Virus genome (UHGV): UHGV-1351982
Source: a virus
Strand: one strand, 5' to 3'
Length of the DNA: 64,000 bases
Shown in pieces: positions 28,330 to 63,407 of the stretch. The notes under the pieces were generated by a model. It was not told where the DNA came from, ran no database searches, and worked only from the letters and a program-made list of their open reading frames with translations. Numbering within the stretch: the stretch's first letter is position 1; the number at the start of each line of letters is the position of its first letter. A program made the translations under genes and the position numbers.

Positions 28330-30111
28330 TTAGGTTAGGCGTTGAACTGTTACACGTAGTCTTGGCAAGAAAACAGCTGCCGCTTCTGCAGCGTGAATGA
28401 TAACACCCAACTCAACGTTGCCATTACCAAGGTTTTTAATAGTATAAATATATCCGTTCCTACGGAAAGCAAACTTATCAGGCCTACTAGCCCAAGTTTG
28501 TGTATAACTATAGGAAGTTGTACTGTGATAAGGTACTAGATATCCAGGTGGCAGAGTAAGAATCTGGTGGAATACACCATCACCAGCTGTATAACTTTGT
28601 TGACGTCTACCTTGTACCTGCCAAGCGCTACCGCCGTAAGTACGCACAGGCATTCCAGCAGTATTAAGATTACCCATAATAACTTCAGTAGTTAATATAA
28701 CGGTAGAGTGAGCATTAGGTAATCCTAACCAAACAGTGGCCAAAGGTGTATAGAAGTCACCAGCACCAGGGTAGGAAGGAGTTATATCATCACCAACATA
28801 AGTACTTGCAACGTTGCCTGGAAATAACCTGAGGGGTACAGTACTAGGACTCCACACAGGTCCATGTTCATTACCGATGGAGTTGGTATTAGTATCTACA
28901 TACCATTGTTTACCTACACCAAATTTATATAAGCTAATTTGAGAAGCTGCACCCCCATAGTTAACAGGAGACCACAACCCGCCATTACTAGAGCCGATAA
29001 ATTCACATCGTGCAGTATTATCACCAAAAACTCCGGTATACGCAGCGTTATTACCAACATACTCCATATCAGGGCGATAGCCTAAGTTTCCAAAGGCATT
29101 CTGGTTAATGAATTTATATCCTGTATTTGGTAAACTAACACCTTTAATAGTAAAGTTAGATGGAGATATTAGGATATCTGAACCGGTAAATGGATTACCA
29201 GAAACTCCCATACTACCATTAGAATAGCGCAGATTTAGCACATACCAAATAACCTTAGTTGGCGTAACGTTATACCAGTCCTGTACATATACCTTTCTAG
29301 CAGACTGAGCAGCCATATTAGAAGTAGAACCTCTACAAACATATATTTTTTTTGGATATGCAGGAGATTGGTAAAGAACGTTTACGTTATCTGGTAGTAC
29401 ACCTTTCTTACCTGCAAAGCCACGAATATTAGAATTACAAACATAAAACCAATCATGGCCTCTACCAGCAGAACCAACAGGCGCCTGCCAGTTAGGTTCC
29501 CAATAATCTGCGTTACCACCATCTAAAGGAACAGTAGAGACACCAGTTGGAAAACCCATAAGACTCCAGGCTCTGGCAATGGCTTCACCAGCAGAAACAC
29601 CACCAGGTCTAAAGATCTGGAAACCAGAGGACTGTAGTAAACTGCCTCCAGAACCTTGCCGAGCAATAGATTCCTCATGACCAAGACCACCATTATAGAT
29701 ATAGGTACCATGAGCTAAACTATCACCGATCGCAAAAGCAGATGTTACAGATAATTCAGCACCAGCACGTGGTTGGTCTTCAAAGAATGATAAGAACTGG
29801 CCAACCTGAGATTGTGTACCATTAAGGAAACCCCTATGAGTACCATTTATCTCAATAGCAGTTAATATAACTCTACCAGGATCATTGGATTTAATGTTTA
29901 TAATATCCCAAGGCATCTGAGTAACAAAGTACCCATTACCTGCATCACCTAGGGCAGCCTCATAAGTCCCATCAACTAGGACGAAGGGCATATCTGAGTG
30001 GAAGATACTATTAGTATTTGGAGAGTAGTGCTGATTTATATCACCACCATTAGCAGCGTTTAGAGATAATACAGTTTTACCATCACTAAATTTTCCTGCG
30101 AAAAAACTCAT
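28330..30111 (-). CDS. oad: receptor-binding protein (T5 pb5/oad-like)
   Basis: 593 aa; N-terminus [18 protein letters not shown]...IFHSDM resembles my recollection of T5 pb5; divergently adjacent to llp as in T5-like phages. Confidence 0.6.
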
Positions 30112-33177: not shown

Positions 33178-34842
33178 TTATGCAAAGAATTTACCGTTCT
33201 TAAAGTCAATCAATGTTCTTTGACCGTTTGCATAGGTAATTAAATGCGTTTGCGTCCAGCTTGACGCGCCCACGTTGTAGCCCATATCAAGGGAACCAGC
33301 AACGCCAGCGGTATAAACGCCGCCGTAAATGCTAGCCGTATGAGTATGACCAGTGTTAAGGCGTCCCAACTTTTTAAACTGCTTAGGATTGCCCCGACTG
33401 CCGTTAATGCCATTGTGACCATGTACGCCGCATTCAATGCCAGCGATTTTAAACGACTGGTCAGTAGTCAGGAAAATAGCGTTAAATTCGCAACCTGCGA
33501 CACTACGCAAGGCGTAATCTAGCACGTTAAAAGTATCATCCTTTTCAGCAATAGCGGCGTATATAGCAGCGTTTAGACGGTGATACAATTCCGCGTTTGC
33601 GGGATCGTCTTTAATGTTAGCGTTACGATCATCTAACCAGCGGGATAAAGCTAAATCATGGTTAGATTCAACAATGATTGTTTGAGAGAAATCACGCTCC
33701 ATTGATTCTAATACGCGTCCAGTGTCGATAAGATCATCTAGAACCTTGTCACGTCCTGCGGCGTACTGTTTAGCAAGGAATACACCACTAGCGCGGTTGT
33801 GATGGTTACGCGATGTAAAATCATGCACATCATGAATAAACTGATATTTAGGCTTGAGAATATCAAGCAAGCTGTTTTCACTAGCCCATGAAGCAACGGC
33901 GCATTCATCATCTAATTTTTCGGCGTGAATATCACCATATTGCAAGCCTAGAACATGATCGGACGTTTCAAAACATCCGGTAGGCATAGCGCAAACATTC
34001 AAATCATAAAACATTCCGCTTTCGTCCATCGTTTCAAGCTGACGAACAAAAAATTCGCCGTCGTCGTCAAATTCTACCAGCAAAGCGCCGAAATTATGTA
34101 AAGCCTCGGCCTTTTGTCCTGCCTTTTGCTGGATATAGTTTTTAAGCGTAGCCGTTCCGGTTGAATACATACGGCGCACTACTTCACCTTTTAACGCTGG
34201 CACACTTTCAGCGGTAATTTTAGCGTGACCAATTGCCAGACCTTCAATATTTAAAGCCGTGGCGGTTTCTGCGAATCCTGAAAGCGGATAGTCTGCCGTT
34301 GGTAACACGTTAATTTCAGCCATGAAAGCAAAACGGCGATTATTTAAAAATACGTTTTTCTCGCAAATATATTTATTAAATGCGGGATCGTATTTAATGC
34401 CTTCGTTACCTTCTCCATTCTGGAAGCCGTTTTTATTGTAAATGAATTTACTAACCAGCAATTCACCGCCGATATATTCAGCGAATTTTTCCAGACTTGC
34501 TAAAAAGTTTTTATGCGGGAAAGTATTATTTTGAATCGACGTTAGAATAAAACGGCGACCGGATTTAACTTCCCACTGTTCCACGGTACTAGAAACAATT
34601 CCCGCCGCTTCGGGGCGATCATCATTTTTAATCGCCTTTTCAGCTTTTGCCGCTTTCGGTTTTGCTGGCTTATTTGCTTCCAACCAATCGCAAATTGCGG
34701 TTGAATGTTTCGTTGTATCGTAAACAGCTTTTGATATATCGTCGCAAACTTCCAGCTTAGTAGCGCGTAAACGTTTACCGTAGAAATTAAAATCAGCGGC
34801 AAGTTTAACGATCTGGGCTTGTTTTTCTGCGGAAATATTCAT
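33178..34842 (-). CDS. A1: A1-like pre-early protein with metallophosphatase motifs
   Basis: 554 aa (T5 A1 about 556 aa); calcineurin-like motifs GDIHAE and GHTHTASIYGG; in pre-early region next to dmp. Confidence 0.6.
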   Translation of the reverse strand: MNISAEKQAQIVKLAADFNFYGKRLRATKLEVCDDISKAVYDTTKHSTAICDWLEANKPAKPKAAKAEKAIKNDDRPEAAGIVSSTVEQWEVKSGRRFILTSIQNNTFPHKNFLASLEKFAEYIGGELLVSKFIYNKNGFQNGEGNEGIKYDPAFNKYICEKNVFLNNRRFAFMAEINVLPTADYPLSGFAETATALNIEGLAIGHAKITAESVPALKGEVVRRMYSTGTATLKNYIQQKAGQKAEALHNFGALLVEFDDDGEFFVRQLETMDESGMFYDLNVCAMPTGCFETSDHVLGLQYGDIHAEKLDDECAVASWASENSLLDILKPKYQFIHDVHDFTSRNHHNRASGVFLAKQYAAGRDKVLDDLIDTGRVLESMERDFSQTIIVESNHDLALSRWLDDRNANIKDDPANAELYHRLNAAIYAAIAEKDDTFNVLDYALRSVAGCEFNAIFLTTDQSFKIAGIECGVHGHNGINGSRGNPKQFKKLGRLNTGHTHTASIYGGVYTAGVAGSLDMGYNVGASSWTQTHLITYANGQRTLIDFKNGKFFA

Positions 34843-35226: not shown

Positions 35227-35643
35227 TTATTCACCTGCGGCCTGTTTTACTTCCTCCGCTACGCCTAACAATTGCGCTACGGCGTCCAGCGTTTCCAGTT
35301 TTGCACTTTCCAGACTTGCCAAATCGTCGGCATCTTTTACAATGCCGCTATCAATGGCATGTTTAGCAATGACGCGCACATAGTGAGCTTTACGGACAGA
35401 GCTACCGCCGCCAACTTTACGCGGTTTATCGCTTTTCTGATAGGCTTTTGCACTGGCCAATTTAGAACGTACAGAAACAGGGGACGCAGCGCCAACGGCG
35501 GCGGCAATTTCTTTTAAGCCGTCACTATTCGCAAACTCAATCCCGCTTTTAGCAACCATTTCAGAGTACATAGAAACAGCTTTTTCGGTGTTTTCTTCGT
35601 TCCAAGAGAATTTTGCGGTTTTTTCGGTTTTAACGTTAGACAT
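35227..35643 (-). CDS. A2-like pre-early protein (putative DNA-binding)
   Basis: 138 aa immediately upstream of A1-like gene; size and position as T5 A2. Confidence 0.4.
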   Translation of the reverse strand: MSNVKTEKTAKFSWNEENTEKAVSMYSEMVAKSGIEFANSDGLKEIAAAVGAASPVSVRSKLASAKAYQKSDKPRKVGGGSSVRKAHYVRVIAKHAIDSGIVKDADDLASLESAKLETLDAVAQLLGVAEEVKQAAGE

Positions 35644-36760: not shown

Positions 36761-36798
36761 TGATGCGCTTAGAATCGCTTACAGAGCGTTTTAGACCC
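36761..36798. repeat. direct repeat copy 1 (TGATGCGCTTAGAATCGCTTACAGAGCGTTTTAGACCC)
   Basis: About 85 percent identical to 40503-40538 by eye. Confidence 0.6.
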
Positions 36799-37010
36799 TG
36801 TTAATAACTTATACAAAAAGCAAAAATGAAATTTAATGAGTTATCCACTTGATTTTTCAAAAAAGTATTTTCTGCTGTTATTTTTCATTGACAAATAAGT
36901 TTAGACGTGCATTGATTGGTTAGCAGACTAACAATCGCTAGGATAATAATCACGCTGGTGGATTGTAACAGCCGAAACAGTTAGCAGACTATTAATACTC
37001 TAAAAACCTA

Positions 37011-37041: not shown

Positions 37042-37099
37042 ATACTTATAAATTAAAGAGAAATAATAACTATAAGAAACTATCGGCTAAGTGAGAACC

Positions 37100-37222
37100 A
37101 CTATCATTTAGGTTATTCACAAAGTTATCCACAGCACAAAATAACTTGACGCAATAGGCGACGTTTTGGCGACTTATCCACAGACTTATGTACAGGTTAT
37201 CCTACTGTATAAATATACAGGG
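37100..37222. repeat. left copy of about 120-bp imperfect inverted repeat carrying two DnaA boxes (TTATTCACA 37113-37121, TTATCCACA 37125-37133), a third DnaA box (37174-37182) and a LexA-like box (37203-37222)
   Basis: Reverse complement of 40567-40690 aligns by eye; includes an identical 16-mer TTATCCACAGACTTAT. Confidence 0.6.
37203..37222. promoter_or_regulatory. LexA (SOS) box-like palindrome TACTGTATAAATATACAGGG
   Basis: CTGT-N8-ACAG core with AT-rich spacer, close to the E. coli consensus TACTGTATATATATACAGTA. Confidence 0.5.
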
Positions 37223-37469
37223 TAGAATGGTAGCAGTAACAACCGCAATCAAATTTAAGCGGCCTAGAACGCGCTACACGGCGTTTTCTCACTGCTACCC
37301 TTATTATAATAAAGCCTTGTGTACGCTTACAGAGAGCTAGAAATAGAAAACGCGCGGTTATCATAAAAACAGGCAGTAGGCAAGGAATAAAAAACCTTTT
37401 CTTTTTTCTTGCCCATAGTGAACAAATATCTATATCATTCACTCACCGATTAACGAGGGAGGCAAAGAA

Positions 37470-38489
37470 ATGTCTACTGTAAGAATTGCAGTGCCAGCAA
37501 ACGCAACTATTGTTAAAGGTAGTTTGCGCAACCTGCTAGATGGTAGTAGTGCGGCAAGTATTCAGCACACCGCTACTATTGTAGAAAAGATTCACGATGA
37601 AATTTTAGACAATAATGATACTCATTATTCAGTTGATGATTTCACGCTATTACTAGACCAGACAAGGGCGCTAGTAATTTTCAACCGTGATTATCACATT
37701 TTCCGTAATAGTCGGGGAACTGATATTGATTTTATCATTGTTGGTTATAGTGAGTCTCATAGTGGTTACATTGCGCGATTATATAACGTGCAAGAAAAGG
37801 AGCAGGTAACAGCAACAAAAGTAAATAATATCCGGCTGGATAGTGTCGGATCGTTATTAAATAGTATCTGGCGTGAATTATCCTCAAGCTATAAAGGTGC
37901 GGATAGTGACGCAATCGAAACAACTGGCGTATTGTGTTTTGAAAAGTCAACGGGTAACATGTTGATCCCTAGCGATTATTTAGGGTATGGGAATGAATCA
38001 AACGTTGCAAACGCTGGATTTACACTTTTCCCGCTTGACAATGTAACAAAACAGGCTGTAAACTCTCAAACTTCAAGCGCAATTGCGCAAACTACTGAAA
38101 ATAAAGGAAATAACACTATGTCTAAAGTAACCGCTATCGTTGCCGCTAATAAATCCGCCGCCGCTACCGCTGCAAAACTGGAAGCGGGTAAAGTAGCACT
38201 AACTCAGCTTACAAAAGTAGCGGCTAAAGCCCTGCCTTCTGGTATGGCTGGCATGTTCGCTAAACAGTATTTAGATACTCCGGTCGGGCGCGTTGTTGTT
38301 GCCAACTTGTTAAATCTGGCAATCGAACAATACGCACCGAATAACCAGAAAGCGCGAATTGTTGCTAAAGCCGCAATGGATGCCGCAATGCTGGAAGTGG
38401 TACAGAGTTTCAATATTTCTGAAATGATCGACAAGGCAATCGAGGGAATCAACATTGATGCTTTGACTGCTAATATTTCAGAAGAGTAA
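37470..38489 (+). CDS. hypothetical protein (339 aa), first gene of plus-strand pre-early cluster
   Basis: Strong RBS GAGGGAGG before ATG; own terminator hairpin after stop; no recognisable domain. Confidence 0.5.
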   Translation: MSTVRIAVPANATIVKGSLRNLLDGSSAASIQHTATIVEKIHDEILDNNDTHYSVDDFTLLLDQTRALVIFNRDYHIFRNSRGTDIDFIIVGYSESHSGYIARLYNVQEKEQVTATKVNNIRLDSVGSLLNSIWRELSSSYKGADSDAIETTGVLCFEKSTGNMLIPSDYLGYGNESNVANAGFTLFPLDNVTKQAVNSQTSSAIAQTTENKGNNTMSKVTAIVAANKSAAATAAKLEAGKVALTQLTKVAAKALPSGMAGMFAKQYLDTPVGRVVVANLLNLAIEQYAPNNQKARIVAKAAMDAAMLEVVQSFNISEMIDKAIEGINIDALTANISEE

Positions 38490-38498
38490 TAATAACAA

Positions 38499-38525
38499 GC
38501 GGGAATTAATTTTCCCGTTTTCTTC
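38499..38525 (+). terminator. terminator-like hairpin after the 339-aa gene
   Basis: CGGGA-ATTAATTT-TCCCG followed by TTTTCTT. Confidence 0.45.
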
Positions 38526-38547
38526 CCTTTTAGTTAGGAGACTAATT

Positions 38548-39039
38548 ATGTTTGGTAACAGAAATTATGGCAACCCTATTGAAGCACGATCCCTTAATCA
38601 TGACGCAATTGTATTCACTCATGCGTCTACCGGTTATTGTGGATCAGATGGGAATGATTATCATTTCGTTCCCGCTGGTGACGATATTGATGATCTATGT
38701 AATGAGGCAGGTTATGAAAATGCTTGCTCTTATGGTCTAGAAGTTATTGAAGTAGACGACGGCGAATATGAGGATAATGATAATATTGAATGCTCCGCTT
38801 ATCATTATCAGTTAAGTGAATCAGGTTGTTATATTGGCGGCGGCGATCCTATTAATTCCATCACTGAAATAATTATTGAAAATGGTGGCGTTTCGCTGAA
38901 TGGTAACAAGGCGTTACTATATGCAAACCGATTAAAGCAACTTGTATATATTCCTGATGGGAAAGAATGGGAAGAATACAACGTTCTAATTGCAGAATTG
39001 AAAAGCTGTTTCGGCGTGGAAGTGGTAGAAATAGTCTAA
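38548..39039 (+). CDS. strongly acidic hypothetical protein (163 aa)
   Basis: RBS TTAGGAGA; Asp/Glu make up over one fifth of residues with very few Lys/Arg, several Cys. Confidence 0.5.
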   Translation: MFGNRNYGNPIEARSLNHDAIVFTHASTGYCGSDGNDYHFVPAGDDIDDLCNEAGYENACSYGLEVIEVDDGEYEDNDNIECSAYHYQLSESGCYIGGGDPINSITEIIIENGGVSLNGNKALLYANRLKQLVYIPDGKEWEEYNVLIAELKSCFGVEVVEIV

Positions 39040-39054
39040 TGTAAAGTTTTGTAA

Positions 39055-39081
39055 AGGTCGCCCTAATCGGCGGCCTTTTTT
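39055..39081 (+). terminator. rho-independent terminator (GGTCGCC-CTAATC-GGCGGCC then TTTTTT)
   Basis: GC stem plus T6 immediately after the stop at 39039. Confidence 0.6.
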
Positions 39082-39146
39082 GTTATAATGCCTTTACACC
39101 GAAACGGTGGATTGAAAATTTTCCCTGATTTCTAGGAGGCGTTAAA

Positions 39147-39377
39147 ATGGTTGCTTTCTCTTCTTCTGACTCCCTTTTCACTGGTAAAGGTTGGGTATCT
39201 AATCGCTGGATCATTGATCAAATGGTTTCGGAATTTGGGATTGGTAAAACTTATGTTACCATTCAGGCGCTTTATGATAATGACAAGATTGACCAGCAAA
39301 CCGCCGGATTTTTGCTGGATACGCTGAAAGCGGAACATTGCACTAAAAAGCAAGCGGCAAAAATTGTTTTAATGTAA
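39147..39377 (+). CDS. hypothetical protein (76 aa)
   Basis: RBS CTAGGAGG; followed by hairpin GGGGCG-TTACTTTC-GCCCC. Confidence 0.45.
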   Translation: MVAFSSSDSLFTGKGWVSNRWIIDQMVSEFGIGKTYVTIQALYDNDKIDQQTAGFLLDTLKAEHCTKKQAAKIVLM

Positions 39378-39424
39378 TTAATAACGGGGCGTTACTTTCG
39401 CCCCTCATTCCCTTACTAGGAGTT

Positions 39425-39643
39425 ATGCAAATGTTAAAGAATGTTTCCCTTGCCCGTTCTAAAGGTTTTAAGCTGGTGGATGTTAACACCTTCGAGCGTC
39501 CAGATTGTAAAATCGAATATGTAGCACGCAACAAAAACCCTTTCCGTGTTACAGAAAAGAAATTTGACAAGCGCGGCAATTTGATAGCCGAAACGGTTAA
39601 ACACTTTGCTACTTTTTACGCTGCTTTTCGTGGGGTATTATGA
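39425..39643 (+). CDS. hypothetical basic protein (72 aa)
   Basis: RBS CTAGGAG; possible 33-aa hydrophobic ORF (39642-39743) overlapping its stop. Confidence 0.45.
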   Translation: MQMLKNVSLARSKGFKLVDVNTFERPDCKIEYVARNKNPFRVTEKKFDKRGNLIAETVKHFATFYAAFRGVL

Positions 39644-39752
39644 GATCCTTATATATTGCTCTAGCGTTTGCTACTGTTGGCGTTGTATGCTCATTCGCCG
39701 CATTTGTTTTAAAAATGTACATGATATTTTCCCAGCTTTAGGAGGTTGACAA

Positions 39753-40100
39753 ATGGTAATTTATGAGGGCAATCGTTTTGTTGCTAATTGCCGTCCGGCA
39801 TTGTTAGCAAACTATTTAAATCAGCTTTCACCAGTTTATAAAGGCGTGGTTAATATCTATGAAGGCAAAGCACATTATAAAATTTCTGCCGTTGTCGCTC
39901 GCGAGCTTGCCTTTCAGTTTCTTACTTTTAACTCATGCGATATTCAGGTTATGGGTGAGCCATTAGTCGCAGAAAATGAAAATGAATTTATTGACATTTT
40001 CCGCAAAGTATGTACAGAGCGCCTGATTATGAAGGGCGCGTATATTCAATCAACCGCTGAAAGTATTGAAACAGCGTTTCGAAAAATTGTAAATGAATAG
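39753..40100 (+). CDS. hypothetical protein (115 aa)
   Basis: RBS TTAGGAGG 8 nt before ATG. Confidence 0.45.
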   Translation: MVIYEGNRFVANCRPALLANYLNQLSPVYKGVVNIYEGKAHYKISAVVARELAFQFLTFNSCDIQVMGEPLVAENENEFIDIFRKVCTERLIMKGAYIQSTAESIETAFRKIVNE

Positions 40101-40226
40101 CTGGTGGCGAAAAACACAAAGCCATAAATCTAATAATACCGCTGGGAAACATTCCCAGCGTTTACGATTTGGTAATGGCTGCGTAATGATATTGATAATC
40201 ATCCTCATTCTAGGAGCGATGGCGTT

Positions 40227-40421
40227 ATGAGTGATAAAATTGTTGTAACTAAAACTACTGTTACCGTTGATACTTTCTTTGTGCCTGATACGCTGGAAAA
40301 TCGGCAATTAGTCGAGCGTGGCGATTATGACAAAGTGATATATGATGGGGATGGATACTATCAACATTTGGTAGACTCCTACGGCGAAAGCGAAAAGATC
40401 ACACATCGACTACCAGACTAA
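40227..40421 (+). CDS. hypothetical acidic protein (64 aa)
   Basis: RBS CTAGGAGC; terminator follows. Confidence 0.4.
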   Translation: MSDKIVVTKTTVTVDTFFVPDTLENRQLVERGDYDKVIYDGDGYYQHLVDSYGESEKITHRLPD

Positions 40422-40427
40422 TAATAA

Positions 40428-40457
40428 CGGGGCGCAACTATCGGCCCCGTCTTTTCT
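40428..40457 (+). terminator. rho-independent terminator (CGGGGCG-CAACTATC-GGCCCCG then TCTTTTCT)
   Basis: Strong GC hairpin and T-rich tail after last gene of plus-strand cluster. Confidence 0.6.
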
Positions 40458-40502
40458 GGCCTTCCTCAAATTTCCCCTTATTAAAATACCTCTTCCAAAA
40501 AT

Positions 40503-40538
40503 AAACGCGTTAGAATGCGTTACAGAGCGTTTTAGAGC
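40503..40538. repeat. direct repeat copy 2 (AAACGCGTTAGAATGCGTTACAGAGCGTTTTAGAGC)
   Basis: Matches 36761-36798. Confidence 0.6.
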
Positions 40539-40566
40539 TATATTAGAGTTATTCACTACGCAGGAA

Positions 40567-40586
40567 TACTGTATAAATATACAGTA
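40567..40586. promoter_or_regulatory. near-consensus LexA (SOS) box TACTGTATAAATATACAGTA
   Basis: Perfect palindrome TACTGTAT/ATACAGTA, 19 of 20 matches to the E. coli LexA consensus. Confidence 0.55.
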
Positions 40587-40690
40587 GAATAATCTGTTGA
40601 TAAGTCTGTGGATAACGCCTCAAAATCGCTAGGATTTTGTCAAGTCAAATCGTGCTGTTAATAAACCTGTGGATAACTTAAATAACAGTG
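40567..40690. repeat. right (inverted) copy of the about 120-bp repeat with LexA box (40567-40586) and two DnaA boxes TGTGGATAA (40607-40615, 40668-40676)
   Basis: Reverse complement aligns with 37100-37222. Confidence 0.6.
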
Positions 40691-40708
40691 TTTCTCACTT
40701 CGCTTTGT

Positions 40709-40852
40709 AAATGCGAGTCATTCTCATTATCATTCGCGTTTCCCTTCCTAAATGCAAATCATTCTCATTCGTATTCCGGTAGTCAAATGATAACTATTCT
40801 CATTCGCATTCAACTTCTCAAATGCGAATCAATCTCATTATCATTCGCATTT
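40709..40852. repeat. four tandem copies of a palindromic unit (AATGCGA..TTCTCATT..CATTCGC)
   Basis: Units at about 40709, 40750, 40785 and 40820; last unit has perfect 10-bp arms AAATGCGAAT/ATTCGCATTT. Confidence 0.6.
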
Positions 40853-40889
40853 CGGCAGGCAGGGCATTTTCTATTTGCCCTGCGCTTTT

Positions 40890-41489
40890 GTGCAAATCCG
40901 ACATTTGCCCCCACGGATTACGTGCCAGCGTGTATGTGCGAATCCGACAATTTTTGGTAGTGTGCAAATCCGACCCGAAATATTTTTATAGTGTGCGAAT
41001 CCGACAATGAATTTCCCTAAAAACTCCAGCAATCTCGAACTGCGATCGAATCCTGTGGGATATGCGCAAATCCGACATGAGTTTGCTAGGAGACAGATTT
41101 ATGGTTTCAGGAATATTTTTGTGACTTCGATGAGAGGGTGTGTAATTGTGTGAGTTTGGGGAGAAGTGCGAATCCGATGAGGTTTTGGGAGGAACTATGA
41201 GAGGAGCAGCGGTGTTGGTGCTTTAGCACCGATTTGCTGCGTTTTTGGGGATAATGTGAGATGTTTTGGGATAATTGGGCGTGGGGTGAGATAAAGTGAA
41301 ATTTTATTAGTTAAATGGGGCAAAATCGCTTGACAAGTGAAAATTCCTGTGTCCCTAAAAACTCAGGCAATCATGGGCCTTCGGCCCGAAATAATGCTGC
41401 TATTTTCAGGAGATTATGTGCTCATGAAAACTTAGGCAATTGTGCAAATCCGACCAGTTTTTAAACTTATATCAGTGTGCAAATCCGAT
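40890..41489. repeat. iteron-like array: 8 direct copies of GTGC(A/G)AATCCGA(C/T), all in one orientation, irregular spacing
   Basis: Copies at 40890, 40936, 40962, 40993, 41064 (variant GCGCAAATCCGAC), 41166, 41442, 41477. Confidence 0.7.
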
Positions 41490-42025
41490 AGCAATTTCCA
41501 GAAATGTGTTTTCAAAAAATGTTGTCTAGAAATAACCGCCCTCCCCATAACCGCCCTGTATTAACCGCCTATTGCTGGAGTTTCTAGGAACATGAAAACC
41601 GCCTGAGTTAATGGGAGTTTTCCTAGAAACTTAGGAGTCTAGAAGAAAGTGTTGTGCCATCCTAGCAGATGAGCGGCAACAGGTGTATCATCTTGAACGT
41701 TAATTTATCTATTTAACAGTATTAGTTTTTATATAAGTATAAGATCCCCAAGGGTTCTCATATAGAGCTTTGCCCCCGCCAGAAGGTCTCGTGATGTTTC
41801 TAGTAATCTTTATTAAATTACTTGTTGACTTGTCCTGTCGCTCCGTAACCTACGCTACAAGTCAGTAATTTAAGATTCCTGAACCACCACACCTTCTGTG
41901 TGGCAACTCTAAATGGTTAATTCTATTAACTCATAGAGTTATGATAACATACATTTAGCTATCTGTCAACGAGAGTTTGTATCTGAGTCTCGGTACAGGT
42001 ATTGTGCACCGAGACATGCAGGATC

Positions 42026-42913
42026 TTACAGTAACTCTTGGTATGCTTTTTGGTACGCCTCAGTGTTAGTAGGTGTATCTTTTGCAATAGTTATTAATTC
42101 ATCTGTGATCTGAATATTCGTATTATAACGTGAGTGGAACTCGTCAGGAATTTCTAGATACCTATTGATGAATGCTGCAGCAAGCGGTGAAGCTATACCC
42201 ATTTCTAGAACCCATCCAACTTGTTTCTCAAACTTCAAATAAGGAGATTCTGTTTGAATAGTAGAAGTTTTGGTTTCCTTGATTTCTTTTATTGGTAGGA
42301 TTGGATTTTCATAACGTGCTTCTTCAGGGATAGCAGATCTACGTTCTTTATAAATATAAGTCTCTAGATCCGATGCTTTAGACCCTGAATATACTGCAAA
42401 GACACTTGCTTTACCTTGTGATGCTCTAATTGGTAAATAGCAATTTGGATAACTTCTCAATGCATCGTGGAAAGGGCTTCCAGAATATTGATAACGCTCT
42501 CCATATAAATCATCAATGTTCATTCGTTCATCTTCGAAGATATGGAATGCACTAAATGAAGGTAGTGTGAAATATTCTGTTTCTAGCGCGCGAATTAAGA
42601 ATCGATGAGCATATGCACTAATCTTAATAACTGTGTAGGGTTTTTCTCCTTCTTTGAGAGCGTTACCCTTAGATGTAACTTGATAACGTTTTCCGAAGAA
42701 CTCTACTAAACGCTTCTCGTTTAAAGAGAGTGTAGAGTATAAACGTCCGTTCAGTCCTAGCAAGGTATCAAACATAAATGCTAGCTTATCTTTTTCTTCT
42801 TGGGTTAGTTCAGGAAATGGTAGGATCTTAGCATTTGGAATGTTATTTGTTTCCTTTGCCTTTCCTTTGCCAGCATTTTGTCTCAGTTTGTCTTTAAAAT
42901 TATAAGTACCCAT
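42026..42913 (-). CDS. hypothetical early protein (295 aa)
   Basis: ORF with coding-like composition; last gene of minus-strand early block. Confidence 0.5.
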   Translation of the reverse strand: MGTYNFKDKLRQNAGKGKAKETNNIPNAKILPFPELTQEEKDKLAFMFDTLLGLNGRLYSTLSLNEKRLVEFFGKRYQVTSKGNALKEGEKPYTVIKISAYAHRFLIRALETEYFTLPSFSAFHIFEDERMNIDDLYGERYQYSGSPFHDALRSYPNCYLPIRASQGKASVFAVYSGSKASDLETYIYKERRSAIPEEARYENPILPIKEIKETKTSTIQTESPYLKFEKQVGWVLEMGIASPLAAAFINRYLEIPDEFHSRYNTNIQITDELITIAKDTPTNTEAYQKAYQELL

Positions 42914-59818: not shown

Positions 59819-59894
59819 TGGTAGTTAGTAGTGGATTTGAACCACTGTAGTCGCTCCGTATGAAGGAGGTGCATAACCTCTCTGCCAACTAACT
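59819..59894 (-). tRNA. tRNA, anticodon CAU (Met or Ile2), encoded CCA
   Basis: Manual fold: acceptor AGTTAGT/ACTAACT, T-arm AGTGG-TTCAAAT-CCACT, anticodon loop TTCATAC. Confidence 0.5.
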
Positions 59895-59990
59895 ATTATG
59901 TTTTACTAGACTAAGTAAGTATTCTTTATACTCTTTAGACCAATTAGCTTTTTTAAACTTTCCTGGACGCATAGTCTTACTTCCTAAATT

Positions 59991-60067
59991 TGGTACTCCG
60001 GGAGGGATTTAAACCCCCGATCTCTCGGTTATCAGCCGAGTGCTTTAGATCGCTAAGCTACCGAAGC
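59991..60067 (-). tRNA. tRNA-Ile (GAU), encoded CCA
   Basis: Manual fold: anticodon arm CTCGG-CTGATAA-CCGAG, T-loop TTTAAAT, acceptor GCTTCGG/CCGGAGT. Confidence 0.55.
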
Positions 60068-60068
60068 A

Positions 60069-60275
60069 TTAACATTTAATTGCAGAACGTTTACCATTTC
60101 TAGGCGCACCTGGAAGTCGTGCACGTTCTGCCATTCTTCGCTTAATCTTTGAGATATTTTCTAGTGTTTGTTCTTCAGGCTTAATACCTGAAACACTACA
60201 CCACTGATTACCATCCCATGCGGTAATGATCATAACACCATTGCCCATAATCTTTTCTGTGAAAGTAATTCTCAT
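60069..60275 (-). CDS. hypothetical small protein (68 aa)
   Basis: ORF between tRNAs. Confidence 0.35.
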   Translation of the reverse strand: MRITFTEKIMGNGVMIITAWDGNQWCSVSGIKPEEQTLENISKIKRRMAERARLPGAPRNGKRSAIKC

Positions 60276-60568
60276 TATAACAACTCGTCTAAGTAAGAGG
60301 TATACTGGTATTTAGCTTCACCAGTTTTATCTACTTCGACTTCTGTTCTAGGTACTTTTCGTACCAGACCGTGAATCATCTTATATTGAATAGATTTAGA
60401 TGGTTCGTGATCTTTAGGAAAGACCTGCTTAACTGTAACTACTTTAAATCCCTCACGTGGTGTTAGTACAACAACTTGATCACCTTCTTTGATTTTCCAA
60501 GACTCAGGAAATTCATAAGTGTAGCGTTGACCACCGGTAAGGAATATAACAGAAAGATAACGTTTCAT
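60275..60568 (-). CDS. hypothetical protein (97 aa)
   Basis: ORF after promoter and leader. Confidence 0.4.
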   Translation of the reverse strand: MKRYLSVIFLTGGQRYTYEFPESWKIKEGDQVVVLTPREGFKVVTVKQVFPKDHEPSKSIQYKMIHGLVRKVPRTEVEVDKTGEAKYQYTSYLDELL

Positions 60569-60598
60569 TTGGTTTTCCTCTCATTAATTTATATAAAC

Positions 60599-60627
60599 AT
60601 TATATCAAGAAATAAGAGGAAAGGCAA
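60599..60627 (-). promoter_or_regulatory. early promoter (TTGCCT-N17-TGATATAAT)
   Basis: Minus strand; conserved leader before ATG at 60568. Confidence 0.5.
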
Positions 60628-60642
60628 ATGAATTTTTAAATT

Positions 60643-60717
60643 TGGTGCTCCCACCAGGAATCGAACCCGGTTCAGATGCTTACAAGGCAACTGCATCGCC
60701 AGCAATGCTTTAGGAGC
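60643..60717 (-). tRNA. tRNA-Thr (UGU), encoded CCA
   Basis: Manual fold: D-stem GCAT/ATGC, anticodon loop CTTGTAA, T-arm CCGGG-TTCGATT-CCTGG. Confidence 0.55.
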
Positions 60718-60884
60718 AATAAACCCGTTATTTCAACGGGATTTCTTTTTCAAATACAGGAGACTTATCAGACATTACTGTCATAGCCAACTGCTGTAGA
60801 AATTCGAATGAGAGTTTTAAACGTTCTTCGCCCAACTCAACCTCAACGCGCTTCATTCGTTTATCTACCTTTATCTTTAGATTA

Positions 60885-61106
60885 TCAGCCATCTTCGGGT
60901 TCTCTTTGCTCAGCTATTGCTAGCCAGTCTGGTAAAAGAAACTTAGTACGAAATTCTTCATATGTTTCTTCCGGATGAAAGCTATAGCCTTGCTTTTCAT
61001 CATTTAATAAAACCGAACCGTCTTCCTGCTCATAAGCTCGGTATGTTTCACCAATAATTAAAACTCGCCTATTAGGATTTTTATTACGAAACTCAAAAAC
61101 GTCCAT
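60885..61106 (-). CDS. hypothetical small protein (73 aa)
   Basis: ORF between tRNAs. Confidence 0.35.
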   Translation of the reverse strand: MDVFEFRNKNPNRRVLIIGETYRAYEQEDGSVLLNDEKQGYSFHPEETYEEFRTKFLLPDWLAIAEQREPEDG

Positions 61107-61121
61107 AACGTTTCCTTAAAT

Positions 61122-61196
61122 TGGTGCGGGATACGAGAGTCGAACTCGTGTCTACTGGTTGGAAGCCAGTTATTCTAGCCACTGAACTAATCACGC
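61122..61196 (-). tRNA. tRNA-Gly (UCC), encoded CCA
   Basis: Manual fold: anticodon arm ACTGG-CTTCCAA-CCAGT, T-arm ACGAG-TTCGACT-CTCGT. Confidence 0.6.
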
Positions 61197-61203
61197 ATTC
61201 GTT

Positions 61204-61279
61204 TGGCTGGAGAAGGAGGAATCGAACCTACCATTAACGGAGTCAAAGGCCGTTGTGCTAACCATTACACTACTCTCCA
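61204..61279 (-). tRNA. tRNA-Gln (UUG), encoded CCA
   Basis: U1-A72 pair and G73 as in E. coli tRNA-Gln; anticodon loop CTTTGAC. Confidence 0.5.
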
Positions 61280-61285
61280 AGTATT

Positions 61286-61361
61286 TGGCTGGGATGCCAC
61301 GGATCGAACGTGGAACCTTCGGAGTCAGAGGCCGACGATCTGCCAATTGATCTACATCCCA
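61286..61361 (-). tRNA. tRNA-Gln (CUG), encoded CCA
   Basis: U1-A72, G73; anticodon loop CTCTGAC; T-arm CCACG-TTCGATC-CGTGG. Confidence 0.5.
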
Positions 61362-61369
61362 ATAATTTT

Positions 61370-61570
61370 TTATTCTTCAGGAACCGTGGCTATTGGATCT
61401 GGTTCTTCTAGACGTTTACCATTATGATCGACACGAATAATGCCACAACCTTCACAGATTACAACAGCACCATAGCCTTCTTTAACTTCGGCTTCTGTAA
61501 TCAGACCAGATAAATCACCAGTATCTTTGCCCCACATATCAATAGAGCATTCTTTGCAGAAATCAGCCAT
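61370..61570 (-). CDS. small zinc-ribbon-like protein (66 aa)
   Basis: CKEC ... CEGC paired Cys motifs. Confidence 0.4.
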   Translation of the reverse strand: MADFCKECSIDMWGKDTGDLSGLITEAEVKEGYGAVVICEGCGIIRVDHNGKRLEEPDPIATVPEE

Positions 61571-61594
61571 ATTTTAGTTCCTGTATAAGTTAAT

Positions 61595-61669
61595 TGGTGC
61601 ATCCTCAGGGAATCGAACCCCGATCGTAAAGTTCGTAGCTTTACATTCTTTCCGTTGAAATAAGGACGC
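61595..61669 (-). tRNA. tRNA-Arg (ACG), encoded CCA
   Basis: Manual fold: anticodon arm TAAAG-CTACGAA-CTTTA, acceptor GCGTCCT/AGGATGC. Confidence 0.5.
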
Positions 61670-61675
61670 AATATT

Positions 61676-61752
61676 TGGGGTGGCTAGTGGAATTCGAATC
61701 CACATAGGCCTGATTCACAATCAGGATCATTAACCAATTATGATATAGCCAC
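61676..61752 (-). tRNA. tRNA-His (GUG), encoded CCA
   Basis: Manual fold: D-stem TCAT/ATGA, anticodon arm CCTGA-TTGTGAA-TCAGG, T-arm GTGGA-TTCGAAT-TCCAC, C73. Confidence 0.6.
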
Positions 61753-62116
61753 AATTGAAAACCATTGAGGAGTAGCGAACTCTCTACACTAGAAGCTTGC
61801 ATGCTCATACCTAGTGATTAGACCTAGCAAATAGGCGCTACAAGTAACGACCCTAAGTGGTAGACTCAAACAGACAATGATTTTCAATTGTGGCGGCTCT
61901 CCGAAACTCATCACACTAACAACTAGTTGATTACTTCTGGATTCTCGCCCAGAAAATTCTCTAGAAAGGTGCACCGTTACTCTTTGAGCCATTGATGATG
62001 GGATGGTCTCTCATCCCCACTAACTACTTAATCCTTACGATTCGTCGGTTAGCACGAGCAGCAACCCTTCATATATAATTTATAGTGCCCAGAAGGTCAT
62101 TAGAAGCACTTTATCA

Positions 62117-62246
62117 AGAAGTAGAAGGACTCGAACCTTCAAGAGATAGACCATTTATCTCAGCCTCGTTTTCGGGTATCTTATGAGGAGTGGATGTTCC
62201 CCTTACGCCCTTTAGGAAGCCCCGTCTACCGATTCCGGCATACTTC
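62117..62246 (-). ncRNA. tRNA-like structured RNA (about 130 nt; T-arm and acceptor pairing but no canonical cloverleaf)
   Basis: GAAGG-TTCGAGT-CCTTC T-arm, acceptor-like pairing GAAGTAT/CTACTTC about 115 nt apart, internal 6-bp hairpin GAGATA-AATGGTC-TATCTC; no long ORF. Confidence 0.3.
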
Positions 62247-62255
62247 AAGAATTAT

Positions 62256-62459
62256 TTAAAACTTGTAACCTTTGGGAACCTTATCTTTAACACCGATATA
62301 CTCAGCTTGGATGTAGTATGTTGGCACATGATCTTTAGGTAGATCTTTATTTACATCATTAACTTCCATCAAGGCTTCGGCCTCGGTGTCAAATGGGCGA
62401 TACCAGATTTCACCACCCCAGCCACGTTCACTTTCAGTATACTTAACAATGTGTTTCAT
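62256..62459 (-). CDS. hypothetical small protein (start trimmed to MKHIVKY)
   Basis: ORF-track start at 62510 would overlap tRNA-Ser; internal Met at 62459 has upstream AGGAAAAC. Confidence 0.35.
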   Translation of the reverse strand: MKHIVKYTESERGWGGEIWYRPFDTEAEALMEVNDVNKDLPKDHVPTYYIQAEYIGVKDKVPKGYKF

Positions 62460-62477
62460 AAGGTTTTCCTTATTAGT

Positions 62478-62567
62478 TGGAGGAAGGTAATGGAGTCGAA
62501 CCATCACCATATCGCTACAGCGGGCAGGTTTTCAAGACCTGTTACATACCACTATGTCCTACCTTCC
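62478..62567 (-). tRNA. tRNA-Ser (UGA), type II with long variable arm, encoded CCA
   Basis: Perfect acceptor GGAAGGT/ACCTTCC, anticodon arm CAGGT-CTTGAAA-ACCTG, variable hairpin CGCT-GT-AGCG. Confidence 0.6.
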
Positions 62568-62794: not shown

Positions 62795-62815
62795 TTATAT
62801 CCCCTATTAGTTGTT

Positions 62816-63162: not shown

Positions 63163-63169
63163 ATTTTAT

Positions 63170-63388: not shown

Positions 63389-63407
63389 ATTATTTCCTTA
63401 ATTTGTT

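What the first reader, a model, noticed from the sequence alone, without database searches (positions are those of the whole stretch)
37100..40690. 3.3-kb plus-strand gene cluster in the pre-early region, bracketed by 120-bp inverted repeats
Between the A1/A2-like genes and the repeat tract sits a cluster of 6-7 small ORFs (339, 163, 76, 72, about 33, 115, 64 aa) on the opposite strand to all surrounding genes. Almost every ORF has its own strong (T)TAGGAG-type RBS and its own GC hairpin terminator, which is unusual for tightly packed phage operons. The cluster is bounded by imperfect inverted repeats (37100-37222 and 40567-40690) that share an identical 16-mer, plus a 35-bp direct repeat outside them (36761-36798, 40503-40538). 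None of the proteins has a motif I recognise. An inverted-repeat-bounded, self-contained module in the first-injected DNA is a plausible home for host-takeover or anti-defence functions, or it may be a mobile or invertible accessory cassette.
Basis: partly seen in the sequence, partly recalled or inferred. Interest (0 to 1): 0.8.

Follow-up and report, generated by a model that had tools for sequence, protein, structure and literature searches.

The report
T5-type pre-early cassette between repeats
This is the well-known second block of first-injected genes of a T5-like phage, flanked by that family's conserved inverted repeats carrying host DnaA (and apparently LexA) binding sites; it is ordinary for the family, although the block lies flipped in some distant relatives.

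Summary
Seven plus-strand ORFs (37470-40421) sit between minus-strand genes and are bracketed by a 135-nt, 75%-complementary inverted repeat (37086-37220 / 40569-40703).

It is not new. The window is a T5-like phage. The region is the right half of the first-step-transfer terminal repeat, and the ORFs are orthologs of T5.011, .012, .014, .015 and .017. The arms are T5's published IRC-spacer-IRD and IRD'-spacer-IRC' repeats, with four DnaA-box pairs. The right arm opens the injection-stop region.

In T5, genes 011 and 015 are toxic host-takeover genes, and hegG-017 can be deleted.

The "mobile or invertible cassette" idea is only partly right:
- No recombinase is present, and the arms occupy this locus across the family.
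- A synthetic flipped junction matches 0 of 542 related genomes.
- The bracketed unit does lie flipped in Klebsiella Sugarland-type phages and Pectobacterium My1, which implies at least two ancient inversions.

Leads I could not find in the literature:
- Each arm ends in a near-consensus LexA box, conserved out to Vibrio and Aeromonas relatives.
- Chi sites are enriched on one strand.
- RefSeq and PHROGs attach the Ung-nickase name to the wrong neighbouring gene.

The parts
36769..36795 (+). Left copy of a 27-nt direct repeat (TTAGAATCGCTTACAGAGCGTTTTAGA), about 290 bp outside the left arm
   Evidence: D9 (89% identical to 40510-40536). The motif recurs next to arms in IME260, AAS21 and KEY.
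37086..37222 (.). Left (A2-side) arm of the inverted repeat, equivalent to T5 IRC-spacer-IRD (Repeat Region 2). DnaA-box pairs at 37113-37133 and 37174-37194 (plus strand, 3-bp gaps). LexA-box-like palindrome at 37203-37222.
   Evidence: I1; (matches T5 NC_005859 6098-6237 and, inverted, 9411-9542); literature.
37409..37438 (+). Candidate sigma-70 promoter of the rightward unit (TTGCCC-18-TATCAT), preceded by an A/T-rich stretch
   Evidence: Window 37352-37549 aligns to T5 6377-6565, which holds the annotated promoter at 6411-6489. That promoter upstream of gene 011 was characterised experimentally.
37470..38489 (+). orf339: ortholog of T5.011 (DUF7566). N-terminal alpha/beta domain that varies between phages, plus a conserved C-terminal helical module.
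   Evidence: PF24450, E = 4e-124; 47% identity to T5.011. T5 011 is toxic and disorganises the nucleoid.
38497..38520 (+). Hairpin after orf339 (-12.2 kcal/mol), followed by a T-rich tract
   Evidence: T5 annotates a terminator after T5.011.
38548..39039 (+). orf163: accessory gene with no T5 homolog (phrog_6741). Homologs in about a third of relatives and in My1 (My1_018), the Sugarland group and AAS21.
39053..39089 (+). Strong terminator (39053-39078, -16 kcal/mol plus T-run), immediately followed by an extended -10 motif TGTTATAAT (39081-39089)
   Evidence: The region is 87% identical to T5 7514-7881, which holds the annotated terminator at 7534-7559.
39147..39377 (+). orf76: ortholog of T5.012 (89% aa identity). 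A hairpin follows at 39386-39404.
39431..39643 (+). orf72 (probably 70 aa): ortholog of T5.014 (90% aa identity). Function unknown; the nickase label in RefSeq and PHROGs appears misplaced. Contains a Chi site at 39472.
39640..39741 (+). orf33: small hydrophobic peptide. Its start overlaps the orf72 stop (ATGA), and its stop lies inside the next RBS. Doubtful gene; no homolog detected.
39753..40100 (+). orf115: ortholog of T5.015 (87.5% aa identity), the Ung-dependent AP-site nickase of Mahata et al. 2021. A hairpin follows at 40140-40160, and a Chi site overlaps the stop codon (40100-40107).
   Evidence: (UniRef name 'DNA-(apurinic or apyrimidinic site) endonuclease' for the 114-aa T5.015), 113
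40227..40421 (+). orf64: ortholog of T5.017 (78% aa identity). A terminator-like hairpin follows at 40427-40450.
40510..40536 (+). Right copy of the 27-nt direct repeat, lying inside the bracket
   Evidence: D9
40567..40703 (.). [quoted passage not shown] LexA-box-like palindrome at 40567-40586 (1 mismatch to the 20-nt consensus). DnaA-box pairs at 40595-40615 and 40656-40676 (minus strand).
   Evidence: I1; literature
40692..41600 (.). Tract of direct repeats and palindromes continuing from the right arm; homolog of the T5 injection stop signal region
   Evidence: D1-D5. (window 40445-42489 aligns to T5 9287-11402). T5 iss misc_feature at 9140-10149.

Best explanation
What it is. The segment is the rightward pre-early transcription unit of a T5-like (Tequintavirus/Epseptimavirus-type) phage. 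It lies in the terminal repeat, which is the first DNA to enter the cell.

The genes. It has its own promoter region and terminators. It encodes dispensable accessory host-takeover proteins that are orthologs of T5 genes 011, 012, 014, 015 and 017, plus one extra gene, orf163, that T5 lacks.

The arms. The two ~135-bp inverted repeats are not the ends of a mobile element. They are the family's conserved IRC-spacer-IRD and IRD'-spacer-IRC' cis elements. Each holds two pairs of DnaA boxes and, at its inner end, a near-consensus LexA-type palindrome. The right arm is the first element of the injection-stop-signal region.

How it most likely works:
- Shown here or in the literature: orthology, synteny, the motifs themselves, and the toxicity and dispensability of the T5 orthologs.
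- Inferred: host RNA polymerase transcribes the unit straight after first-step transfer, and the products disturb the nucleoid and nick the host DNA.
- Inferred: the arms act as landing sites for host DNA-binding proteins at the border of the injected DNA. Davison's untested proposal is that DnaA binding there halts DNA transfer.
- Inferred: because the arms are inverted and enclose a complete transcription unit, rare recombination between them can flip the unit without harm. This has happened in the Sugarlandvirus and Myunavirus lineages. The conserved arms also let gene content between them be swapped.
For: Synteny and orthology:
- The region is collinear with the T5 left terminal repeat, and five ORFs match T5.011.012.014.015 and .017.
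- 536 phage records match the region, and 100 of them cover at least 80% of it.

Identity of the arms:
- They map to T5 NC_005859 6098-6237 and 9411-9542.
- These are Davison's IRC-spacer-IRD (6022-6152) and IRD'-spacer-IRC' (9332-9462), after the ~80-bp offset between the two T5 records.

Motifs:
- There are four DnaA-box pairs with 3-bp gaps, found only in the arms.
- Perfect TTATCCACA occurs 5 times against 0.72 expected, and 4 of the 5 are in the arms.

Function of the orthologs in T5:
- 011, 013 and 015 are toxic, and hegG-017 can be deleted.
- A promoter upstream of 011 was characterised experimentally.
- T5.015 is an Ung-dependent nickase.
- BF23 pre-early genes form 'two inversely oriented transcriptional units'.

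Flipping:
- In IME260, Sugarland and My1 the arms are in place, but the 011-like and orf163-like genes are reversed in both order and strand.
- In AAS21, KEY, Stubb, PSTCR5, Aeromonas TS3 and Vibrio 70E36-1 the cluster is divergent, as it is here.
- dmp, A1 and A2 all place IME260 nearest to T5, and the A1 tree supports this at 97% bootstrap. That implies at least two inversion events.

Mosaicism:
- In the phage with 99%-identical A2 (locus L002), orf339 is 71% and orf163 44% identical.
Against: - Two-step injection has been demonstrated only for T5 and BF23, not for this phage.
[quoted passage not shown] - The count of inversion events rests on trees from three first-step-transfer genes. ICTV taxonomy groups AAS21 and KEY with T5 in Markadamsvirinae, which conflicts with those trees. 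Under that grouping one event could suffice if Sugarlandvirus and Myunavirus were sisters.
- The arms are only 75% identical, with runs of at most about 18 identical bases, so they are poor recombination substrates.
Confidence: 0.85

Rival explanations
1. A mobile accessory cassette (transposon or IS-like element) whose terminal inverted repeats are the two arms.
For: The segment is bounded by inverted repeats and its content varies between phages.
Against: - No transposase or recombinase domain appears in any of the seven proteins.
- The arms sit at the same locus, in the same outer-to-inner orientation, from E. coli and Salmonella phages to Pantoea, Erwinia, Klebsiella and Pectobacterium phages.
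- The arm sequence consists of host-factor motifs.
- The arm sequence gave no third significant match anywhere in the 64-kb window, and its motifs occur nowhere else in the window.
- I saw no flanking target duplication in the sequence.
Confidence: 0.02
2. A programmed invertible switch of the Mu G / P1 C / Hin type, flipping within phage populations.
For: Both orientations of the unit exist among Demerecviridae. The arms end in an identical 18-mer palindrome at the cassette borders.
Against: - No invertase gene is present.
- Orientation is fixed by clade. Every Tequintavirus- or Epseptimavirus-like record sampled is divergent, and every Sugarland-type record sampled is co-directional.
- The synthetic flipped junction is contiguous in 0 of 542 records, against 340 of 538 for the native junction.
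- The asymmetric centre of the palindrome (AAA or TTT) shows no consistent relative orientation between the arms.
Confidence: 0.03
3. The arms act mainly as transcriptional boundary or regulatory elements rather than in the injection stop. DnaA bound to its boxes, and LexA bound to its operator, would insulate or modulate the rightward unit and keep RNA polymerase out of the injection-stop region. This is not exclusive of the best explanation.
For: - The arms lie just outside the promoter and just after the last terminator, so they enclose exactly one transcription unit.
- The palindromes score like strong E. coli SOS operators. Their heterology indices are 1.3 and 4.3, and the next best site in the window scores 9.5.
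- From established knowledge (Schaefer and Messer, late 1980s): a DnaA/DnaA-box complex can block transcribing RNA polymerase.
Against: - No convincing promoter overlaps either palindrome.
- The T5 promoter for 011 lies about 200 bp downstream of the left palindrome.
- No expression data were available to test this.
Confidence: 0.2
4. The arms persist mainly as conserved homology anchors that let co-infecting T5-like phages exchange the accessory module between them. This is not exclusive of the best explanation.
For: - Content between the arms is mosaic while the flanks stay conserved.
- Davison notes that the repeats are better conserved than the roughly 3-kb coding region between them.
Against: - This does not explain why the arms are inverted.
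- It does not explain why they consist of precisely spaced DnaA boxes and a LexA-type palindrome.
- It does not explain why those motifs persist in Vibrio and Aeromonas relatives whose arms are no longer alignable.
Confidence: 0.2

Closest known systems
Phage T5 pre-early genes T5.011-T5.017, flanked by IRC-spacer-IRD (Repeat Region 2) and IRD'-spacer-IRC' (Repeat Region 3 / injection stop signal). Sources: Heusterspreute 1987; Wang 2005; Davison 2015; Davison 2020 bioRxiv 10.1101/866236.
   Same: - Same position in the terminal repeat and same strand arrangement.
- Five orthologous genes.
- Arms of the same length (~131-135 bp) with four DnaA-box pairs at 3-bp gaps and the same 16-nt palindrome.
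- Same downstream repeat tract.
   Different: - Gene content differs. There is no hegG, T5.013 or T5.016, and orf163 and a possible 33-aa peptide are extra.
- orf339 is only 47% identical to T5.011.
- This phage has all eight DnaA or DnaA-like boxes, whereas T5 has seven.
Clusters of DnaA boxes at oriC and at DnaA-titrating loci in E. coli
   Same: Repeated TTATCCACA-type 9-mers at fixed spacing, strongly enriched over chance.
   Different: - The boxes are arranged as two inverted sets 3.4 kb apart.
- No AT-rich unwinding element was identified.
- T5 replication origins lie elsewhere.
- Binding is untested.
LexA (SOS) operators of gammaproteobacteria, with consensus TACTG(TA)5CAGTA
   Same: - The right-arm site matches 19 of 20 consensus positions and the left-arm site 17 of 20. 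None is expected by chance in 64 kb.
- Both rank among strong operators on a heterology index.
- The motif is conserved in phages whose hosts share this LexA motif.
   Different: - Neither site is placed over a recognisable promoter.
- No LexA-binding or expression data exist.
- The sites could instead be targets of a phage protein such as A2.
Invertible DNA segments of phages and bacteria (Mu G, P1 C, Salmonella Hin)
   Same: A gene block bounded by inverted repeats and found in both orientations.
   Different: - No invertase is present.
- The arms are about five times longer than hix- or gix-type sites.
- Orientation is fixed within clades, and no flips are seen among 542 relatives.
Phage 'moron' or accessory-gene cassettes carrying their own promoter and terminator
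   Same: Non-essential, variable genes that are separately transcribed, some toxic to the host.
   Different: The unit sits at a fixed, family-wide locus between conserved cis elements, not at scattered insertion points.

Membership tests
T5-type first-step-transfer (pre-early) rightward gene unit | Lies in the terminal-repeat DNA between the dmp-A1-A2 leftward operon and the injection-stop repeat tract, on the opposite strand | tested here: met
   The region is collinear with the T5 left terminal repeat.
T5-type first-step-transfer (pre-early) rightward gene unit | Orthologs of the T5.011-T5.017 genes | tested here: met
   Five of T5's seven genes are present, at 47, 89, 90, 87.5 and 78% aa identity. 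T5.013 and T5.016 are absent. PHROG and Pfam families agree.
T5-type first-step-transfer (pre-early) rightward gene unit | Expressed before second-step transfer; two-step DNA injection | not testable with these tools
   Shown only for T5 and BF23. Pre-early transcripts and proteins were seen for Bas33.
IRC-spacer-IRD / IRD'-spacer-IRC' repeats of T5-like phages | A pair of ~131-bp inverted repeats, one in the divergent-promoter region and one at the start of the iss tract | tested here: met
   Arms at 37086-37220 and 40569-40703. They match both T5 arms with E = 5e-29 and 4e-23.
IRC-spacer-IRD / IRD'-spacer-IRC' repeats of T5-like phages | Eight DnaA or DnaA-like boxes in four pairs, each pair separated by 3 bp | tested here: met
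   Four pairs are present: five boxes match the consensus TTWTNCACA and three are one-base variants. The two pairs start 61 bp apart in each arm.
IRC-spacer-IRD / IRD'-spacer-IRC' repeats of T5-like phages | DnaA binding and a role in stopping DNA injection | not testable with these tools
   This is a hypothesis of Davison 2020 and remains untested.
Site-specific invertible segment (Gin/Hin/Cin type) | An adjacent invertase (serine recombinase) gene | tested here: not met
   No recombinase domain appears in the seven proteins. Neighbouring genes are A2, T5.007-like and hdi-like orthologs.
Site-specific invertible segment (Gin/Hin/Cin type) | Both orientations found among close relatives or within a population | tested here: not met
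   The flipped junction is contiguous in 0 of 542 records, and the native junction in 340 of 538. Heterogeneity within a population could not be tested.
Transposon / insertion sequence | A transposase gene, and terminal inverted repeats found at varied genomic sites | tested here: not met
   There is no transposase. The arms occupy the same locus in all relatives.
LexA (SOS) operator | Match to CTGT-N8-ACAG / TACTG(TA)5CAGTA | tested here: met
   The sites at 40567-40586 and 37203-37222 have 1 and 3 mismatches; 0 matches are expected.
LexA (SOS) operator | Overlaps or adjoins a promoter that it represses | tested here: inconclusive
   No convincing -35/-10 pair overlaps either site.
LexA (SOS) operator | LexA binding, and derepression on SOS induction | not testable with these tools
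   Requires EMSA, ChIP or reporter assays.

The most novel reading that the evidence does not exclude
The arms are composite landing pads for host DNA-metabolism proteins, not only DnaA-box clusters. Each ends in a near-consensus LexA operator placed 8 bp from a DnaA-box pair.

This DnaA-box plus CTGTAT-N4-ATACAG pairing brackets the divergent accessory unit throughout Demerecviridae. It holds even in Aeromonas and Vibrio relatives whose A1 protein is only 32-35% identical. In addition, Chi sites in the first-step-transfer right half are enriched on one strand, oriented for RecBCD entering from the right genome end.

If LexA really binds, then the SOS repressor, and its RecA-dependent removal once A1 starts destroying host DNA, could be part of the long-unexplained stop and restart of T5 DNA injection, or of terminal-repeat recombination. 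I found no mention of LexA boxes or Chi sites in T5-type first-step-transfer DNA in the searchable literature. However, the key older papers (Heusterspreute 1987, Wang 2005, Davison 2015) are not held, so prior description cannot be excluded.
Probability: 0.3. Interest if true: 0.7.

Novelty: already known. Interest (0 to 1): 0.3.

Why it matters
As submitted, the finding re-discovers a textbook feature of T5-like phages, so it needs no new category.

Its value lies in three by-products, each of which can be tested directly:

1. Conserved LexA-type operators sit beside the DnaA boxes at both borders of the unit. How T5 halts and resumes DNA injection has been open since the 1960s. These sites point to concrete experiments: infection of lexA and recA mutant hosts, and mutation of the boxes.

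2. The arm-bracketed transcription unit has been flipped at least twice in the family's evolution. Its orientation relative to the injection-stop region is therefore not critical. The arms themselves keep their orientation, so that is what is conserved.

3. A propagated database error assigns the Ung-dependent nickase name to the 70-aa T5.014 family instead of the 114-aa T5.015 family. This affects the annotation of hundreds of phage genomes.

Tried and rejected
- Protein function. Pfam, PHROGs, NCBIfam and PADLOC gave only DUF7566 and unnamed phage families. Sequence searches of the PDB were empty.
- DUF7566 C-terminal module. An exhaustive search found 639 representatives, always with the module at the C-terminus and with variable N-termini. 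One carries a HIRAN domain. No function emerged.
- RNA families. Rfam found nothing near any gathering score.
- The 27-nt direct repeat as a marker of inversion. Rejected, because the motif sits at both inner ends in IME260 and beside the A2-side arm in the non-flipped AAS21 and KEY.
- Orientation of the palindrome's asymmetric centre (AAA or TTT) as a crossover-site signature. Rejected, because it varies freely.
- A promoter overlapping the LexA-type boxes. None was convincing.
- A second IMG/VR scan with an A1 profile returned the same contigs as the first scan.
- Literature. Davison 2015 is not held. Searches for T5 with LexA or with Chi found nothing relevant.

Full report
**1. What is in the sequence**

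One search confirms seven plus-strand ORFs between 37470 and 40421, of 339, 163, 76, 72, 33, 115 and 64 aa. Minus-strand genes lie on both sides:
- To the left are a 554-aa ORF (33178-34842), a 138-aa ORF (35227-35643) and two small ORFs.
- To the right is a 295-aa ORF (42026-42913).

One search finds the inverted repeat at 37086-37220 and 40569-40703. It is 135 nt long and 75% complementary, and a direct BLAST of one arm against the window gives E = 8e-22. The arms share an identical 18-mer, TACTGTATAAATATACAG (D17).

Six ORFs have a strong Shine-Dalgarno sequence. orf339 has GAGGGAGG and five others have (T)TAGGAG(G). orf33 has none, and its ATG overlaps the orf72 stop.

Stable hairpins of -12 to -16 kcal/mol follow orf339, orf163, orf76, orf115 and orf64. 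Those after orf339, orf163 and orf64 passed the scan's T-run criterion, with an uninterrupted T-run only after orf163.

- The direct repeat is 27 nt at 89% identity, and its right copy (40510-40536) lies inside the bracket, not outside it (D9).
- orf72 probably starts at 39431, giving 70 aa.

**2. What it is**

The region matches 536 phage records, nearly all T5-like phages of Salmonella, Escherichia and Klebsiella. The best matches are about 95% identical over 99% of the query.

The region is collinear with the left terminal repeat of phage T5. That repeat is the first-step-transfer DNA, the part that enters the cell first. The window runs dmp, A1, A2 on the minus strand, then the plus-strand unit, then the injection-stop repeat tract.

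The window ORFs correspond to T5 genes as follows:

| Window ORF | T5 ortholog | aa identity |
|---|---|---|
| orf339 | T5.011 | 47% |
| orf76 | T5.012 | 89% |
| orf72 | T5.014 | 90% |
| orf115 | T5.015 | 87.5% |
| orf64 | T5.017 | 78% |
| orf163 | none | - |

hegG, T5.013 and T5.016 are absent from the window.

The arms align to T5 (NC_005859) 6098-6237 and 9411-9542. Allowing for the ~80-bp offset between the two T5 records, these are Davison's IRC-spacer-IRD (6022-6152) and IRD'-spacer-IRC' (9332-9462). The offset follows from the terminal-repeat ends: 10219 in NC_005859 and 10409 minus 270 in the record Davison used.

Davison describes these repeats as conserved in nearly all T5-like phages and as holding eight DnaA boxes in pairs separated by 3 bp. 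The window has exactly this pattern:
- Pairs lie at 37113-37133 and 37174-37194 on the plus strand, and at 40595-40615 and 40656-40676 on the minus strand. The pair pattern occurs nowhere else in the 64 kb.
- Perfect TTATCCACA occurs five times against 0.72 expected, and four of the five are in the arms.

[quoted passage not shown] The architecture is therefore published.

**3. What the genes do**

By orthology with T5:
- Genes 011, 013 and 015 are toxic when expressed alone. 011 disorganises the nucleoid.
- T5.015 binds host Ung and nicks the abasic sites that Ung creates.
- A T5 mutant lacking hegG through 017, together with most left-hand genes, is viable but makes small plaques.
- A promoter upstream of 011 was characterised experimentally. 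The window region 37352-37549 aligns with it and contains a TTGCCC-18-TATCAT candidate.

The strong terminator after orf163 is followed at once by an extended -10 motif, TGTTATAAT. The block is therefore probably several short transcription units rather than one operon. This is inference.

My own function searches added little:
- The conserved C-terminal ~120 residues of orf339 form a widespread module. It has 639 representatives, is always C-terminal, and is fused to variable N-termini, one of which carries a HIRAN domain.
- No protein matches a defence-system model.

**4. Is it mobile or invertible?**

There is no transposase or invertase. The arms sit at this locus, palindrome innermost, in phages of Escherichia, Salmonella, Klebsiella, Pantoea, Erwinia and Pectobacterium. 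This rules out a transposable element.

The unit does, however, exist in both orientations:
- In Klebsiella phages IME260 and Sugarland, the arms are in place (L040 4426-4553 and 8083-8211). The 011-like gene (E = 1e-31) and the orf163-like gene (E = 3e-14) lie on the same strand as A1 and A2, in reversed order. This is what a flip of the whole bracketed segment predicts.
- Pectobacterium My1 shows the same pattern (arms at 7821-7957 and 11721-11857; My1_019, My1_018 and a T5.017-like gene co-directional with A1).
- The divergent arrangement seen in the window is found in AAS21, KEY, Stubb, PSTCR5, Aeromonas TS3 and Vibrio 70E36-1. It is therefore probably ancestral.

dmp, A1 and A2 each place IME260 closest to the T5 group. 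The A1 neighbour-joining tree gives that clade 97% bootstrap support with My1 excluded. On that tree at least two inversions are needed, or one inversion plus a reversal or a transfer. This is a tree of first-step-transfer genes only, and it disagrees with the ICTV grouping of AAS21 and KEY with T5.

[quoted passage not shown] The homology of the flipped genes shows that at least part of this is an inversion rather than a replacement.

The flip is rare. A synthetic junction (left flank + left arm + reverse complement of 40100-40568) is contiguous in 0 of 542 matching records. The native right junction is contiguous in 340 of 538. This argues against a working switch. It fits rare recombination between diverged arms, which are 75% identical with at most about 18 identical bases in a run.

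The flip is probably tolerated because the arms enclose a complete unit, from promoter to last terminator. This is inference.

Content between the arms is mosaic. In the phage whose A2 is 99% identical (locus L002), orf339 is 71% and orf163 44% identical.

**5. How the arms may work**

The only published model is Davison's. In it, membrane-bound DnaA binds the boxes and halts DNA transfer, and A1/A2 release the block. It is untested. I adopt 'host-factor binding cis elements at the border of the injected DNA' as the most likely role, and I mark it as inference.

Rival or additional roles are transcriptional insulation and service as homology anchors for module exchange. Neither is excluded.

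**6. Leads beyond the finding**

(a) LexA-type palindromes
- The 18-mer at the inner end of each arm matches the gammaproteobacterial LexA operator consensus TACTG(TA)5CAGTA. The site at 40567-40586 has 1 mismatch and the site at 37203-37222 has 3.
- No other site in the 64 kb has 3 or fewer mismatches, and none is expected by chance.
- On a heterology index built from E. coli operators that I listed from memory, the two sites score 1.3 and 4.3. That is within the range of strong SOS operators. The next best site in the window scores 9.5.
- In 39 of 40 IMG/VR loci the iss-side site is within 1-2 mismatches of the consensus.
- The stricter pattern CTGTAT-N4-ATACAG occurs once or twice in 81 of 88 loci fetched, and where I compared positions with the arms the sites lie in the arms.
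- It also occurs twice in Aeromonas TS3 (0.00 expected) and three times in Vibrio 70E36-1 (0.01 expected). In TS3 each site, and in the Vibrio phage two of the three, lies within about 130 bp of TTATCCACA boxes, and the sites bracket most of the divergent small-gene cluster.
- A phage DNA-binding protein this diverged might be expected to have shifted its specificity. Persistence of the host consensus therefore favours a host factor, but the A2 protein remains an alternative.
- No promoter overlaps the sites.
- Davison's text calls palindromes in this region palC and palD and never mentions LexA or SOS. Library searches for T5 with LexA found nothing. The older key papers are not held.

(b) Chi sites
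- GCTGGTGG occurs six times in the window against 0.84 expected.
- Three sites are on the plus strand at 36954, 39472 and 40100. None is on the minus strand within the terminal repeat.
- Across 40 related loci there are 80 Chi sites on the strand opposite A1 and 9 on the A1 strand, against about 10 expected per strand. These loci are not independent.
- The bias recurs in T5, KEY, AAS21, TS3, the Vibrio phage and Stubb.
- In IME260 the two Chi sites inside the flipped unit keep the same absolute orientation.
- PSTCR5 is reversed and My1 is mixed.
- The orientation is the one active for RecBCD moving leftward, as it would when entering at the right genome end.
- Coding-strand codon usage (CTG GTG) may contribute to the bias.

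(c) Annotation errors
- Mahata et al. name the nickase by locus tag T5.015. That tag belongs to the 114-aa protein, and UniRef names it an AP endonuclease.
- RefSeq and PHROG phrog_4227 put the nickase name on the 70-aa T5.014 protein, which another T5 record calls 'ORF015'.
- The nickase ortholog in the window is therefore orf115, not orf72.

**7. Verdict**

The feature is already known. The interest of the finding as posed is low. The LexA and Chi leads, and the evolutionary flips, are the parts worth following up.

Noticed in passing
window 37203-37222 and 40567-40586; also T5 L001 6213 and 9411, L040 4461 and 8161, L087 5569 and 9491, L088 7167, 10264 and 10941: The palindrome at the inner end of each arm is a near-consensus LexA (SOS) operator, with 1 and 3 mismatches to TACTGTATATATATACAGTA and none expected by chance. 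It is conserved next to DnaA boxes across Demerecviridae, including Aeromonas and Vibrio phages. It is not mentioned in the T5 papers I could read.
   Followed up: partly
window 36954, 39472 and 40100 (plus strand); 45096 and 50231 (minus strand); 1489 (plus strand): Chi sites (GCTGGTGG) are enriched: 6 against 0.84 expected. In the right half of the terminal repeat all three are on the plus strand, and related loci show 80 against 9 by strand. In IME260 the Chi sites inside the flipped unit keep the same absolute orientation. That orientation suits RecBCD entering from the right genome end.
   Followed up: partly
window 39431-39643 (orf72) and 39753-40100 (orf115); T5 L001 8086-8298 and 8300-8644: RefSeq and PHROG phrog_4227 label the 70-aa T5.014 family as the Ung-dependent abasic-site nickase. 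The source paper uses locus tag T5.015, which is the 114-aa protein, and UniRef names that one an AP endonuclease. The likely cause is confusion with 'ORF015' in another T5 record. The error has propagated to many phage annotations.
   Followed up: yes
window 37470-38489 (orf339): UniRef and several GenBank records call this DUF7566 family 'DNA N-6-adenine methyltransferase'. Neither Pfam nor the fold search supports that name. Its conserved C-terminal ~120-aa module occurs in 639 cluster representatives, fused to variable N-terminal domains, one of them carrying HIRAN.
   Followed up: partly
window 39053-39089: The strong terminator after orf163 is followed immediately by an extended -10 motif, TGTTATAAT. 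This suggests a restart promoter for orf76 onward. The stretch is 87% identical to the T5 region that holds an annotated terminator.
   Followed up: no
window 39640-39741 (orf33): This is a 33-aa hydrophobic ORF whose start overlaps the orf72 stop (ATGA) and whose stop lies inside the orf115 RBS. T5 has no gap at this position, and its two-transmembrane toxic gene T5.013 is missing from this phage. orf33 may be a small membrane peptide or may not be a gene.
   Followed up: no
window 36919-36935 and 36980-36996; 40594-40616 and 40655-40677; 37113 and 37174: A start-to-start spacing of 61 bp recurs three times: between the DnaA-box pairs in each arm, and between two copies of GTTAGCAGACTA just outside the left arm.
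   Followed up: no
window 59819-63562: A cluster of 13 tRNA genes lies on the minus strand, as is typical of the early region of T5-like phages. A 593-aa ORF (28330-30111) sits just left of the terminal-repeat DNA, in the position where AAS21 and KEY have their receptor-binding protein. This suggests the record is an assembly with a single collapsed copy of the terminal repeat.
   Followed up: no
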